The position numbers were made by a program. Shown here one piece after another: positions 32,401 through 35,400 of a DNA stretch of 64,000 nucleotides; position 1 is the stretch's first letter; every line of letters begins with the position of its first letter. Origin of the DNA: Escherichia coli (GTDB taxonomy: Bacteria; Pseudomonadota; Gammaproteobacteria; Enterobacterales; Enterobacteriaceae); assembly GCF_044647545.1 (NCBI RefSeq), contig NZ_CP172818.1; one strand, 5' to 3'.

Positions 32401-35400
32401 GTTGTTTAAAAATTGTTAACAATTTTGTAAAATACCGACGGATAGAACGACCCGGTGGATAAGGGCGTCATAAAAAAAACGTCAGACCCGCCGGAGATAA
32501 ATATATAGAGGTCATGATGAGTACTGAAATCAAAACTCAGGTCGTGGTACTTGGGGCAGGCCCCGCAGGTTACTCCGCTGCCTTCCGTTGCGCTGATTTA
32601 GGTCTGGAAACCGTAATCGTAGAACGTTACAACACCCTTGGCGGTGTTTGCCTGAACGTCGGCTGTATCCCTTCTAAAGCACTGCTGCACGTAGCAAAAG
32701 TTATCGAAGAAGCCAAAGCGCTGGCTGAACACGGCATCGTCTTCGGCGAACCGAAAACCGATATCGACAAGATTCGTACCTGGAAAGAGAAAGTGATCAA
32801 TCAGCTGACCGGTGGTCTGGCTGGTATGGCGAAAGGCCGCAAAGTCAAAGTGGTCAACGGTCTGGGTAAATTTACCGGGGCTAACACCCTGGAAGTTGAA
32901 GGTGAGAACGGCAAAACCGTGATCAACTTCGACAACGCGATCATTGCAGCGGGTTCTCGCCCGATCCAACTGCCGTTTATTCCGCATGAAGATCCGCGTA
33001 TCTGGGACTCCACTGACGCGCTGGAACTGAAAGAAGTACCAGAACGCCTGCTGGTAATGGGTGGCGGTATCATCGGTCTGGAGATGGGGACCGTATACCA
33101 CGCGCTGGGTTCACAGATTGACGTGGTTGAAATGTTCGACCAGGTTATCCCGGCAGCTGACAAAGACATCGTTAAAGTCTTTACCAAGCGTATCAGCAAG
33201 AAATTCAACCTGATGCTGGAAACCAAAGTTACCGCCGTTGAAGCGAAAGAAGACGGTATTTATGTGACGATGGAAGGCAAAAAAGCACCAGCTGAACCGC
33301 AGCGTTACGACGCCGTGCTGGTAGCGATTGGTCGTGTGCCGAACGGTAAAAACCTCGACGCAGGCAAAGCTGGCGTGGAAGTTGACGACCGTGGTTTCAT
33401 CCGCGTTGACAAACAGCTGCGTACTAACGTACCGCACATCTTTGCTATCGGCGATATTGTCGGTCAGCCGATGCTGGCACATAAAGGTGTTCACGAAGGT
33501 CACGTTGCCGCTGAAGTTATCGCCGGTAAAAAACATTACTTCGATCCGAAAGTTATCCCGTCCATCGCCTATACCGAACCAGAAGTTGCATGGGTAGGTC
33601 TGACTGAGAAAGAAGCGAAAGAGAAAGGCATCAGCTACGAAACTGCCACCTTCCCGTGGGCTGCTTCTGGTCGTGCTATCGCTTCCGACTGCGCAGACGG
33701 TATGACCAAGCTGATTTTCGACAAAGAATCTCACCGTGTGATCGGTGGTGCGATTGTCGGTACTAACGGCGGCGAGCTGCTGGGTGAAATCGGTCTGGCA
33801 ATCGAAATGGGTTGTGATGCTGAAGACATCGCACTGACCATCCACGCGCACCCGACTCTGCACGAGTCTGTGGGCCTGGCGGCAGAAGTGTTCGAAGGTA
33901 GCATTACCGACCTGCCGAACCCGAAAGCGAAGAAGAAGTAATTTTTCGTTTGCCGGAACATCCGGCAATTAAAAAAGCGGCTAGCCACGCCGCTTTTTTT
34001 ACGTCTGTAATTTACCTTTCCAGTCGCCTTGCTCCGCGCTCAGAGAGACGTTCGCGTACTGCTGACCGTTGCTCGTTATTCAGCCTGACAGTATGGTTAC
34101 TGTCGTTTAGACGTTGTGGGCGGCTCTCCTGAACTTTCTCCCGAAAAACCTGACGTTGTTCAGGTGATGCCGATTGTATACGCTGGCGGGCGTTATCACG
34201 TTGCTGTTGGTTCAGTGGGCGCTGCTGTACTTTTTCCTTAAACACCTGGCGCTGTTCGGGAGTTGCAGACTGAATGCGCTGGCGCGCTGCCTCTCTTCGC
34301 TGCTGGTTCTGCGGGTTAGTCTGCATTTTCTCGCGAACCGCCTGGCGCTGCTCAGGCGAGGCGGACTGAATACGCTCACGCGCTGCCTCTCTTCGCTGCT
34401 GGATCTGCGGGTTAGTCTGCATTTTCTCGCGGACTGCCTGGCGCTGCTCAGGAGAGGCCGACTGATAACGCTGACGAGCGGCGTCCTTTTGTTGCTGGGT
34501 CAGTGGTTGGCGACGGCTGAAGTCGCGGAAGTCGTCATAGCTCCCATAGTTTTCAGCTTCATTAAACCGCTGTGCCGCAGCCTGACGCTGGGTATCTCGC
34601 GTAGTGACTGGTGCTGCGTGTGTTCGTTGCTGAAACTGGCTTGCTGCCGCCTGACGCTGACTGTCGCGCGATAGAGCAGGTAACTGCGTGGCGCTCATGC
34701 CGCCGTTGACATCGGTTTGGTGAAACCGCTTTGCCATATCCTGATCATGATAGGGCACACCATCACGGTAGTTTGGATTGTGCCGCCATGCCATATTCTT
34801 ATCAGTAAGATGCTCACCAGTGATACGGTTGAAATTGTTGACGTCGATATTGATGTTGTCGCCGTTGTGTTGCCAGTCATTACCGTCACGATGACCGCCA
34901 TCGTGGTGGTGATAATCATCATCGTCATGATGATGATGGTCATGATCGTCATCGTCCCAGTCGATGCTGCTGAATAGTGCGTATGTGGTAGCAACGCCCA
35001 TGCTATAGCCGAATCCGCGCACAAAGCTGTCAACAAACGGTTCTCCGGCTGGCGGCGGCAGATAAACTGGCGGATACGCAGTATTGGCCCAGTTCCCGTA
35101 AACCACGGTTGGGTTGTAGTTGGGAATATAGACCACATCAGGATTGGTGGGCTCAATGGAAATGACGGTTGTTGCAGGCTCTGTAATGACAGGGTTGGCA
35201 GTTGAAACGGTATTGGATGGTATGACGGGAGCCGTGACTGTCTGTGTTACCGGTACAGCTTTCTTCGTTGTGGTAATAACTTTCTGTTCGGTTGATGACT
35301 TCAGCGAACCGGTTTGTTGCGCCAGTTGCCGCAATCGCTGTACCGAGTCCATCACGTCCTGCGGCTGCGCCAGAAAAGCATCGCCCAGGTTTTGCACCCA

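What the first reader, a model, noticed from the sequence alone, without database searches (positions are those of the whole stretch)
34111..34949. yacH encodes four tandem 32-aa repeats plus a His/Asp-rich tract (metal-binding-like low-complexity region)
The C-terminal third of YacH consists of four 96-bp tandem repeats encoding Gln/Arg-rich units (QQRREAARERIQSASPEQRQAVREKMQTNPQ). Further upstream (about 34872..34949) lies an unusual run WDDDDHDHHHHDDDDYHHHDGGHRDGNDW. Tandem DNA repeats of this length are prone to copy-number change by recombination, and the His/Asp cluster resembles divalent-cation-binding segments. The protein has a signal peptide, so it is probably periplasmic or secreted.
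Basis: seen in the sequence. Interest (0 to 1): 0.35.

Follow-up and report, generated by a model that had tools for sequence, protein, structure and literature searches.

The report
Length-variable repeats inside E. coli yacH
The known but uncharacterised E. coli gene yacH really does contain four 32-residue repeats and a His/Asp-rich stretch, and both vary in length between strains, but this is an ordinary kind of coding repeat and its proposed metal binding is still untested.

Summary
The ORF at 34012..35865 (-) is E. coli yacH: 617 aa, Pfam DUF3300, lying between lpdA and acnB.

**32-aa repeats**
- Four 96-bp units lie at 34120..34503, followed by a degenerate fifth.
- AlphaFold2 models each unit as a helix-turn-helix hairpin.
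- Among complete E. coli genomes, about 55% carry four units and about 45% carry three. The three-unit alleles have at least two different junctions, and rare five-unit alleles exist.
- Unit 2 is a chimera of units 3 and 1, which is the footprint of an unequal crossover.

**His/Asp tract** (34873..34959)
- 21 of 27 residues are His or Asp, encoded by a GAY/CAY simple sequence.
- The tract is modelled as a disordered expansion of a beta-hairpin turn in the DUF3300 domain.
- It sits at the same site across Enterobacteriaceae, with 1-12 His.
- In E. coli it varies by in-frame indels of -13 to +8 aa.
- It shares DDDDHDH...HHH with the zinc-binding loop of periplasmic ZnuA.

**Constraint and function**
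- Both tracts are under purifying selection (dN/dS about 0.13).
- Metal binding and export are plausible but untested.
- The fold has no match in the PDB.
- The repeats resemble the CpxP LTXXQ motif only marginally.

This is an ordinary, correctly read finding of modest interest.

The parts
34012..35865 (-). yacH coding sequence (617 aa plus stop), DUF3300 family
35791..35865 (-). N-terminal signal-peptide-like segment (aa 1-25). It has K2 and K8, a hydrophobic core V11-C21, and AASA before G26. An uncleaved anchor is not excluded.
   Evidence: Read directly from the sequence. KD19 peak of 2.04 at aa 11. Helix 10-18 in the model.
34720..35658 (-). Folded DUF3300 body (aa 70-382): a helical bundle at aa 75-184, then a beta region. 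The Pfam model covers only aa 75-333 (34867..35643).
   Evidence: AF2 pLDDT is 93-98 for aa 70-200 and 230-270, and 78-94 for aa 340-380. Pfam match.
34873..34959 (-). His/Asp tract WDDDDHDHHHHDDDDYHHHDGGHRDGNDW (aa 303-331). It is a disordered expansion of a beta-hairpin turn, encoded by GAY/CAY simple sequence.
   Evidence: TRF period 9 at 34916..34952
34720..34854 (-). Family-conserved segment after the loop (aa 338-382): NINIDVNNFN ... W360-x-H362-x-P-x-(H/Y)-R367-x-G-V-P-Y372. It lies outside the Pfam model.
   Evidence: Conservation across 102 homologues: W 92, H362 91, R367 89, Y372 85. pLDDT 78-94.
34504..34665 (-). Gln/Arg-rich segment before the repeats (aa 401-454), with two short RD(S/T)QRQAAA motifs. 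Some alleles carry a 45-aa duplication here.
34408..34503 (-). Repeat unit 1 (aa 455-486)
34312..34407 (-). Repeat unit 2 (aa 487-518). It is a chimera: its 5' 42 nt resemble unit 3 and its 3' 54 nt resemble unit 1.
34216..34311 (-). Repeat unit 3 (aa 519-550)
34120..34215 (-). Repeat unit 4 (aa 551-582)
34024..34119 (-). Degenerate fifth unit, containing the C-terminal motif LNNEQRSAVRERLSERGARR that is conserved across Enterobacteriaceae
33971..33999 (.). A-run / GC stem / T-run hairpin between the convergent genes lpdA and yacH; a likely bidirectional intrinsic terminator
   Evidence: Fold of -15.9 kcal/mol, z = -2.0; sequence

Best explanation
**What it is (shown).** This is the annotated E. 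coli gene yacH, a DUF3300 protein with two internal repetitive tracts. Both are real, both are conserved as features, and both vary in length between strains.

1. **Repeat array.** The C-terminal array of 32-aa units evolves by unequal homologous recombination between units. Each unit consists of two helices, each capped by an (S/T/N)-Pro motif, as in QQRREAARERIQSA | SPEQRQAVREKMQTNP. A three-unit array (U1-U3-U4) produced the four-unit allele seen in this window through a crossover that created the chimeric unit 2. Separate crossovers produced other three-unit and five-unit alleles.
2. **His/Asp tract.** This tract is an expansion of about 30 residues in the turn of a beta-hairpin on the DUF3300 domain. 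It is encoded by a cryptic (GAY/CAY)n microsatellite that gains and loses codons by slippage. Selection keeps the reading frame and the H/D composition, but not the exact sequence.

**How it probably works (inferred).**
- YacH is exported by an N-terminal signal peptide.
- The disordered H/D loop is a low-affinity, multi-site binder or antenna for divalent cations (Zn/Ni/Cu). It would act like the DDDDHDH...HHH loop of periplasmic ZnuA, and it sits next to family-conserved His residues (H362, H366).
- The charged helical-hairpin repeats form an elongated interaction or spacer module whose length can change by whole units without loss of function.
For: **Identity.**

**Repeat anatomy and significance.**

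**Copy-number polymorphism.**
- In 40 and 60 evenly spaced rows drawn from 5,425 genomes, the spans were 1854 versus 1758/1764/1746 bp and 609 versus 513 bp. That gives about 53-57% four-unit alleles and the rest three-unit.
- A five-unit allele (P0005), a 45-aa duplication and a 17-aa duplication are.
- Units are positionally orthologous between alleles. There are two kinds of three-unit allele: U1-U3-U4, and U1-U2-U3/4 hybrid.
- Unit 2 matches unit 3 at 38/42 nt in its 5' part and unit 1 at 50/54 nt in its 3' part.
- E. albertii and two divergent Escherichia alleles carry three units.

**H/D tract.**
- There are at least 26 variants of 24-31 aa among the 120 nearest cluster representatives.
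- In 60 sampled genomes, 48 have the window's length. The others differ by -6, +6, +24 or -39 bp, all in frame, and one allele is disrupted.
- The tract is at the same site in Klebsiella, Kluyvera, Enterobacter, Raoultella, Franconibacter and Buttiauxella, with 1-12 His.
- 15 of 88 distant homologues have at least 5 His in the stretch between the conserved Trp residues, where this tract lies.

**Structure.**
- pLDDT is below 50 for aa 308-334, between strands 299-301 and 338-341.
- The repeats form helix pairs with pLDDT 83-87.
- The homologue P0149 has no insertion and shows the same two strands joined by a 4-residue turn.

**Selection.** dN/dS is 0.13 in the repeats, 0.14 in the tract and 0.06 in the core.

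**ZnuA resemblance.** [20 protein letters not shown] (ZnuA) versus WDDDDHDHHHHDDDDYHHHDGG (YacH).

**Envelope link.** yacH is CpxR-regulated, and a delta-yacH strain survives protamine better (PMC9600279).
Against: - No metal-binding, localisation or topology data exist for YacH in the literature I could search.
- Most DUF3300 homologues lack an H/D expansion, so it is not needed for the core function of the family.
- The gene is dispensable. Keio mutants are viable, and yacH is a pseudogene in several S. Typhimurium strains through an 8-bp deletion inside this very tract.
- The census rests on evenly spaced samples of BLAST rows, not on a full allele count. The three-unit status of the 12 partially matching rows is extrapolated from three sequenced representatives.
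- The direction of change (3 to 4 units) rests on only three outgroup alleles.
Confidence: 0.6

Rival explanations
1. Both tracts are functionally neutral low-complexity filler in a loop and a tail. They are tolerated because they sit outside the folded core, and the H/D composition simply reflects what slippage of GAY/CAY codons produces.
For: - Lengths vary freely between strains.
- The expansion is absent from most of the 9,511-member family.
- The gene is non-essential and is inactivated in S. Typhimurium strains.
- Tails of distant homologues carry unrelated tandem repeats of their own.
Against: - dN/dS is 0.13-0.14 in both tracts.
- All length changes seen in the samples are multiples of three, apart from the one disrupted allele.
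- An H/D tract has been kept at the same hairpin turn in at least 8 genera, although its sequence turns over.
- The repeat units have stayed recognisable and positionally orthologous despite 17-35% DNA divergence.
Confidence: 0.22
2. The C-terminal repeats are CpxP/Spy-type LTXXQ modules. On this reading YacH is a Cpx-regulon periplasmic chaperone or adaptor, and each 'SASPEQRQAVREKMQ' acts like the LTXXQ helix start of CpxP.
For: - BLASTP of the tail against CpxP gives 35% identity over 91 aa and aligns YacH motifs with both CpxP LTXXQ motifs. The pairwise E-value is 0.002.
- The Smith-Waterman score is 84, against 48-55 +/- 8 for shuffles; 0-1 of 1000 shuffles reach it.
- yacH is CpxR-regulated.
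Against: - No Pfam LTXXQ hit at E <= 10. The best Pfam hit for the tail is DUF3106 at E = 0.007, below its cutoff.
- hhalign probability is 6.8% for CpxP and 1.8% for Spy.
- The Spy comparison is not significant.
- A profile of the units does not find CpxP, Spy or ZraP in the PDB.
- The composition (Q/R/E helices) inflates such scores.
Confidence: 0.15
3. The hydrophobic Gly-rich segment before the tract (aa 281-300) is a transmembrane helix. The H/D tract and the Arg-rich repeats would then be cytoplasmic, not periplasmic.
For: - Across homologues this segment has a median 19-residue Kyte-Doolittle hydropathy of 1.63, and it is at least 1.6 in 51% of them.
- The tail after it is net positive in almost all homologues, while the DUF3300 domain is net negative. 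This is the positive-inside pattern.
Against: - In YacH itself the hydropathy is only 0.78.
- AF2 models the segment as a short helix plus strands packed in the domain, not as a long helix. This holds both in YacH and in the strongly hydrophobic homologue P0149.
- The segment after the loop (aa 338-382) is confidently folded, with strands that need partners.
- No coordinates or PAE could be inspected.
Confidence: 0.1
4. The acidic, His-rich loop is a polycation or pH sensor rather than a metal site. It would be about -11 at neutral pH and near neutral when His is protonated, and it would bind cationic antimicrobial peptides or respond to acid.
For: - Delta-yacH survives protamine better, and yacH transcription falls on exposure to protamine or cecropin A.
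- The tract holds 11 Asp and 10 His in 29 residues.
Against: - The phenotype comes from a single study and has not been mapped to the loop.
- The His count ranges from 1 to 12 among genera, while the leading DDDD run is constant. That fits neither reading cleanly.
Confidence: 0.08

Closest known systems
His-rich loop of periplasmic ZnuA (E. coli zinc ABC-transporter binding protein)
   Same: Both are disordered His/Asp-rich loops inserted in a folded, exported protein. The local sequences nearly match: ZnuA [20 protein letters not shown] versus YacH WDDDDHDHHHHDDDDYHHHDGG. From my own knowledge, the ZnuA loop binds zinc at a secondary site.
   Different: There is no homology outside the loop, and YacH has no ZnuA-family Pfam hit. 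The YacH tract is denser (21/27 H+D versus 17/27 H+D+E). Metal binding by YacH is untested.
His-rich loop of RcnA (YohM), and coding VNTRs in general
   Same: RcnA has a poly-His/Asp/Glu loop encoded by simple sequence: 23/27 H+D+E, 17 of them His. From my own knowledge, the 6-bp repeat in this loop is the Salmonella MLVA marker STTR5, a His/Asp-coding tract that changes length between strains.
   Different: The RcnA loop is in a membrane transporter and, from my own knowledge, faces the cytoplasm. The YacH tract is not a perfect short-unit repeat, and one length dominates (48 of 60 sampled genomes).
DUF3300 / DUF2950 gene pair of Proteobacteria
   Same: YacH is a bona fide DUF3300 protein. 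It has the family's signal peptide, helical-plus-beta body, W-x-H-x-P-x-H-R-x-G-V-x-Y motif and long charged tail.
   Different: - In 4 of 4 distant homologues examined, a DUF2950 gene follows immediately (PMC4653623).
- yacH and the one enterobacterial-type relative whose contig was examined (P0124) stand alone.
- The E. coli tail lacks the family's AFxG...RGxxSR...GGGGRR ending and has the 32-aa array instead.
CpxP / Spy LTXXQ periplasmic proteins, and DUF3106
   Same: The helix-initiating motif (S/L)(S/T)PEQ(R/Q)Q..(R/N)EK.Q recurs in a helical hairpin. The pairwise similarity to CpxP is marginal, and the Pfam DUF3106 hit is weak. Both CpxP and YacH are Cpx-regulated.
   Different: No profile-level support. 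YacH has 4-5 tandem copies attached to a DUF3300 domain, rather than a single two-motif hairpin dimer.

Membership tests
Pfam DUF3300 (PF11737) | Match to the family HMM above the gathering score | tested here: met
   263.4 bits versus a cutoff of 25, E = 2e-78, aa 75-333 covering profile positions 2-227 of 227. 9,511 homologues at E <= 0.001.
Pfam DUF3300 (PF11737) | N-terminal export signal, as reported for the family | tested here: inconclusive
   YacH has K2 and K8, a hydrophobic core with KD19 of 2.04 and an AASA|G site. Relatives show canonical signal peptides or a lipobox. No signal-peptide predictor was available, and the 19-residue hydrophobic stretch could also be an anchor.
DUF3300-DUF2950 operon | DUF2950 gene immediately downstream | tested here: not met
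   Downstream of yacH is the convergent gene lpdA. The pair is present in 4 of 4 distant homologues and absent next to the enterobacterial-type P0124.
Coding VNTR (intragenic tandem repeat with copy-number polymorphism) | Head-to-tail units, in frame, with different copy numbers among strains | tested here: met
   TRF period 96. Alleles with 3, 4 and 5 units. A chimeric unit marks a crossover.
CpxP/Spy LTXXQ family | Match to the family profile or fold | tested here: not met
Pfam DUF3106 (PF11304) | Match above the gathering score | tested here: not met
   17.2 bits versus a cutoff of 24.3, E = 0.007, for the repeat region alone.
Metal-binding His-rich loop (ZnuA-like, by analogy and not by homology) | Disordered His/Asp-rich loop in an exported protein | tested here: met
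   21/27 H+D. pLDDT below 50 between confident strands. Shared DDDDHDH and HHH motifs with ZnuA.
Metal-binding His-rich loop (ZnuA-like, by analogy and not by homology) | Binds divalent cations | not testable with these tools
   Needs ICP-MS, ITC or IMAC on purified protein with and without aa 304-331.

The most novel reading that the evidence does not exclude
DUF3300 would be a periplasmic metal-handling domain. Its conserved His site (W360-x-H362 ... H366-R367, next to the Asp/Asn ladder NINIDVN) would be fed, in Enterobacteriaceae, by an expandable His/Asp antenna loop that evolved convergently with the ZnuA loop. The unit-number-variable helical tail would dock the protein onto an envelope partner under Cpx control. 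This would give a first function to a family of more than 9,500 clusters, and to its DUF2950 partner.
Probability: 0.12. Interest if true: 0.55.

Novelty: new member of a known kind. Interest (0 to 1): 0.3.

Why it matters
yacH is one of the uncharacterised 'y-genes' of E. coli, and DUF3300 is a large family with no characterised member and no structural match in the PDB.

The analysis gives concrete handles for a first functional test:
- where the folded domain ends (aa 382, beyond the Pfam model);
- that the His/Asp tract is a hairpin-turn insertion resembling the ZnuA zinc loop;
- that natural alleles with 3, 4 or 5 repeat units, and with loop lengths from -13 to +8 aa, already exist as ready-made variants.

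On the practical side, the 96-bp array and the GAY/CAY tract are lineage-informative length markers. They are also places where assemblies and annotation can go wrong, producing frameshifts, inversions or collapsed repeats.

Beyond that, the finding is an ordinary coding repeat polymorphism.

Tried and rejected
- **Solved structures.** A sequence search of the PDB with the whole protein found only His/FLAG-tagged GPCR constructs matching the H/D tract. The tail alone and a profile of the units gave only chance hits, such as designed armadillo repeats.
- **NCBIfam.** No family matched.
- **MLVA marker ms11.** I suspected that the published E. coli/Shigella marker ms11 (96-bp unit) might be this array. 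Its primers, taken from PMC8215070, are absent from the window even with 3 mismatches, so I rejected the idea.
- **Literature on a yacH VNTR.** Nothing relevant was found.
- **Rfam.** Nothing in 33800..36300 reached a gathering score.
- **Opposite-strand ORF.** The ORF at 34174..34674 (+, 166 aa) is repetitive. I take it to be the mirror image of the repeats, and it has no support as a gene.
- **Spy.** Similarity is not significant.
- **Contingency locus.** I considered on/off switching by slippage in the H/D tract and judged it unlikely. The tract is an imperfect repeat, and 59 of 60 sampled genomes keep the frame. Inactivating events do occur, however.
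Full report
**1. What is at the coordinates**

The only long ORF covering 34111..34949 runs on the minus strand from 35865 to 34012 and encodes 617 aa. It lies between lpdA (32514..33941, +) and acnB (from 36067, +).

Its DNA is 100% identical to E. coli FDAARGOS_497. It matches a gene annotated 'yacH: DUF3300 domain-containing protein' in 5,425 of 5,426 complete E. coli genomes. Pfam places DUF3300 on aa 75-333 at 263 bits, and NCBIfam has no model for it. So this is a known, named but uncharacterised gene.

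**2.

*Repeats.* Tandem Repeats Finder reports a 96-bp period over 34129..34476. In protein register the four units are aa 455-486, 487-518, 519-550 and 551-582, corresponding to window 34408..34503, 34312..34407, 34216..34311 and 34120..34215. A degenerate fifth unit follows at aa 583-614. Pairwise identity between units is 62-80/96 nt and 19-25/32 aa, so this is an old, diverged array rather than a recent duplication.

*His/Asp tract.* The tract is aa 303-331 (34873..34959). Its best 27-residue window holds 21 H+D. The binomial P is about 1e-20 given the rest of the protein, and the next best stretch in any frame of the 64-kb window reaches 9 of 27. It is written almost entirely in GAC/GAT/CAT/CAC codons, and TRF sees a 9-bp periodicity there.

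The four units make up one fifth of the protein; it is the whole Gln/Arg-rich region (aa 401-617) that forms the C-terminal third.

**3. Copy number does vary**

- *Whole-gene sample.* I sampled rows at even steps down the BLAST ranking of all complete E. coli genomes. The match spans 1854 bp in about half of the rows and 1758, 1764 or 1746 bp in most of the rest.
- *Repeat region plus flanks.* In this sample 32 of 60 rows span the full 609 bp, 16 span exactly 96 bp less, and 12 match only partially.
- *The partial matches.* They belong to divergent allele classes. The sequenced representatives of those classes (L005, L007, L008) all have three units.
- *Estimate.* Roughly 53-57% of genomes carry four units and the rest carry three. 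This is an estimate from samples, not a full count.
- *Rare alleles.* The protein database also holds a five-unit allele (P0005, 648 aa), alleles with a 45-aa duplication just upstream of the array (P0007-P0009, 662 aa, seen on 27 contigs) and one with a 17-aa duplication (P0053).

**4. How the array changes**

Units are positionally orthologous between alleles: unit i of one strain best matches unit i of another. Three-unit alleles come in at least two kinds:
- U1-U3-U4 (L003, L005);
- U1-U2 followed by a U3/U4 hybrid (L007, L008).

That implies at least two independent events.

In the window's allele, unit 2 is a chimera. Its first 42 nt match unit 3 (38/42, against 30/42 for unit 1). Its last 54 nt match unit 1 (50/54, against 34/54 for unit 3). 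This is the product expected from an unequal crossover between unit 3 and unit 1 of a U1-U3-U4 array.

E. albertii and two divergent Escherichia alleles (L009, L017) carry three units. The four-unit allele is therefore probably derived. The reverse direction is not excluded without a phylogeny.

**5. The His/Asp tract also varies**

- *Sequence variants.* Among the 120 nearest 90%-identity cluster representatives there are at least 26 different tract sequences, 24 to 31 residues long.
- *Lengths in 60 sampled complete genomes.* The window's length appears in 48. Two are 6 bp shorter, six are 6 bp longer, one is 24 bp longer and two are 39 bp shorter. The last one is disrupted.
- *Reading frame.* Every intact length change is a multiple of three.
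- *Disrupted allele.* In ETEC L3_E36 a stretch of the gene that starts inside the tract reads as the reverse complement of downstream yacH sequence, i.e. a local inversion. The gene is annotated as frameshifted, and I cannot exclude an assembly error.
- *Salmonella Typhimurium.* An 8-bp deletion in the same tract makes yacH a pseudogene in 14028s, UK-1, SL1344 and D23580 relative to LT2 (PMC3391293; PMC10048834).

The tract is therefore a mutational hot spot, and most survivors keep the frame.

**6. Constraint**

Between the window allele and K-12, dN/dS is 0.12 for the whole gene. By region it is 0.06 in the DUF3300 core, 0.14 in the tract and 0.13 in the repeats. Neither tract is drifting freely.

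Across Enterobacteriaceae (Klebsiella, Kluyvera, Enterobacter, Raoultella, Franconibacter, Buttiauxella) an acidic tract starting WD(D/H)D sits at the same position. Its His count ranges from 1 to 12 and its length varies widely. Composition and place are conserved; sequence is not.

In those genera the tail carries degenerate repeats of about 17 aa (QNPTAQQQQRRExAKSH) and a conserved ending, LSxxQRSAxREHLSxHRELRHR. The 32-aa unit of Escherichia looks like two such half-units (NPQ.QQRREAARERIQS + ASPEQRQAVREKMQT). The crisp 32-aa array is therefore an Escherichia-lineage elaboration.

**7. Structure**

*YacH model.* AlphaFold2 with a 102-sequence alignment gives mean pLDDT 72.9 and pTM 0.60.
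- A very confident helical bundle spans aa 75-184, followed by strands.
- Strand 299-301 is followed by a gap in confidence (pLDDT below 50 at aa 308-334).
- The model then becomes confident again at strand 338-341, helix 342-349, strand 357-359 and helices up to aa 382 (pLDDT 78-94).

*Homologue without the insertion.* P0149 gives the same pattern, with the two strands (240-243 and 248-251) joined by a four-residue turn. The H/D tract is therefore an expansion of a beta-hairpin turn on the surface of the domain.

*Domain boundary.* The folded domain extends about 50 residues beyond the Pfam model. It includes the family-conserved motif W360-x-H362-x-P-x-(H/Y)366-R367-x-G-V-P-Y372.

*Repeats.* Each unit is modelled as two helices (for example 486-500 and 504-515) with pLDDT 83-87. 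The breaks fall at SASP and TNPQ.

**8. Location**

The N-terminus has two lysines, a hydrophobic core and an AASA|G site. Relatives have canonical signal peptides or a lipobox, and the literature describes DUF3300 and DUF2950 proteins as carrying signal peptides (PMC4653623).

One alternative needs stating. In the family, the Gly-rich hydrophobic segment before the tract has transmembrane-like hydropathy (median 1.63), and the tail is net positive. That could mean a cytoplasmic tail.

Against this, the YacH segment scores only 0.78. Both AF2 models build the segment as part of the globular fold rather than as a long helix. I therefore favour full export, at about 0.8 against 0.1 for the transmembrane alternative. 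I could not inspect coordinates or PAE.

**9. What it most likely does**

*Shown.* There are two length-variable tracts under purifying selection in a probably exported envelope protein. That protein is CpxR-regulated, and its loss improves survival in protamine (PMC9600279).

*Inferred.*
- The H/D loop is a multi-site, low-affinity divalent-cation binder.
- The best argument is its near-match to the His-rich loop of periplasmic ZnuA: [20 protein letters not shown] against WDDDDHDHHHHDDDDYHHHDGG.
- It is a disordered loop placed next to conserved His residues.
- His enrichment recurs in the same loop region in 15 of 88 distant homologues.
- The tail is most simply read as an elongated, charged helical-hairpin module for interaction or spacing, which tolerates adding or removing whole units.

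*Resemblance to CpxP.* The repeat motif resembles the LTXXQ motif of CpxP in a targeted pairwise comparison: 35% identity over 91 aa, and 0-1 of 1000 shuffles reach the score. Profile methods do not support this, and the Spy comparison is not significant. I record it as a lead, not as family membership.

**10. Comparison with what is known, and novelty**

YacH is a member of DUF3300. It differs from typical members in two ways. It has no adjacent DUF2950 gene, whereas one is present in 4 of 4 distant loci examined. Its tail has replaced the family's Gly/Arg-rich ending with the 32-aa array.

The tracts belong to well-known kinds: coding VNTRs and His-rich loops. From my own knowledge, the His/Asp-coding 6-bp repeat in Salmonella yohM/rcnA is the MLVA marker STTR5. 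The RcnA loop itself is shown.

I found no paper describing the yacH polymorphisms. The 96-bp MLVA marker ms11 is a different locus.

The finding is therefore correct and ordinary, with some modest new details: the allele spectrum, the chimeric unit, the hairpin-turn placement and the ZnuA-like motif. Interest 0.3.

Noticed in passing
window 41649..43238 (+): The second most His-rich stretch in the window is [27 protein letters not shown], inside a 529-aa ORF with a twin-arginine-like start ([10 protein letters not shown]). From my own knowledge this is the Met/His-rich insert of the multicopper oxidase CueO. A proven periplasmic metal-binding low-complexity segment therefore lies 7 kb from yacH.
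   Followed up: partly
L006 (E. coli NCTC10444), yacH aa ~122-163 relative to the window: A 42-aa in-frame deletion inside the most conserved part of the DUF3300 helical bundle, with 'GDA' at both ends of the lost segment (KQGDA...NLGDA). This is probably a non-functional allele that still reads as an intact ORF.
   Followed up: partly
L032 (ETEC L3_E36, NZ_LR882997.1), yacH: yacH is annotated as frameshifted. Starting inside the His/Asp tract, the sequence reads as the reverse complement of downstream yacH sequence, so this looks like a local inversion. Both ends appear to carry CATGATC-type sequence (my reading of the alignment). It could be real or an assembly artefact.
   Followed up: partly
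P0007-P0009 and P0053 (E. coli YacH alleles): A 45-aa duplication (AAPVITRD...LTQQQKD) lies upstream of the 32-aa array and is seen on 27 contigs. A separate allele has a 17-aa duplication inside unit 3/4. The whole C-terminal third is therefore prone to in-frame duplication, not only the 96-bp units.
   Followed up: partly
L010, L011/L012, L013, L016 (distant DUF3300 loci): In all four distant homologues a DUF2950 gene follows DUF3300 immediately, overlapping the stop codon in L011. E. coli yacH and the enterobacterial-type P0124 lack this partner. The pairing is reported in PMC4653623, but its loss in Enterobacteriaceae is not mentioned there.
   Followed up: partly
Alignment A1 (102 DUF3300 homologues), C-termini: Most homologues end in a conserved AFxG...RGxxSR motif followed by a Gly run and terminal RR(R), e.g. 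GGGGGGRGGGGRR. Many carry their own unrelated tandem repeats in the tail, such as GDARERAREVASNRAAGSG x5 in P0129 and HAEAERAQAA repeats in P0197. The meaning of the terminal Gly/Arg motif is unknown.
   Followed up: no
window 35173..35262 (yacH aa 202-231) and 35644..35766 (aa 34-74): Two further Thr/Val/Pro/Ala-rich segments differ sharply between E. coli lineages: VTQTVTAPVIPSNTVSTANPVITEPATT versus VNQPANAPATQSNTVSTSSPVVAEPAPT, and QLAVSDAAAVT versus QQTAPDITAVT. They have lower pLDDT than the surrounding domain, so they are additional variable loops or linkers.
   Followed up: no
window 34012..35865 versus 33712..33941: yacH differs from K-12 at 83 of 1851 nt (dS 0.15). The last 230 nt of the adjacent gene lpdA differ at only 1 nt, and the same LpdA protein accession appears in nearly all alleles examined. 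There is a sharp step in diversity at the lpdA/yacH boundary.
   Followed up: partly
window 34873..34959 (protein-level search): The only PDB sequence 'hits' of YacH are engineered GPCR constructs, and the match covers YacH aa 301-343, the His/Asp tract. I take the matched residues near the start of those chains to be purification tags (FLAG / poly-His). Natural H/D tracts can attract spurious matches to tagged constructs.
   Followed up: yes
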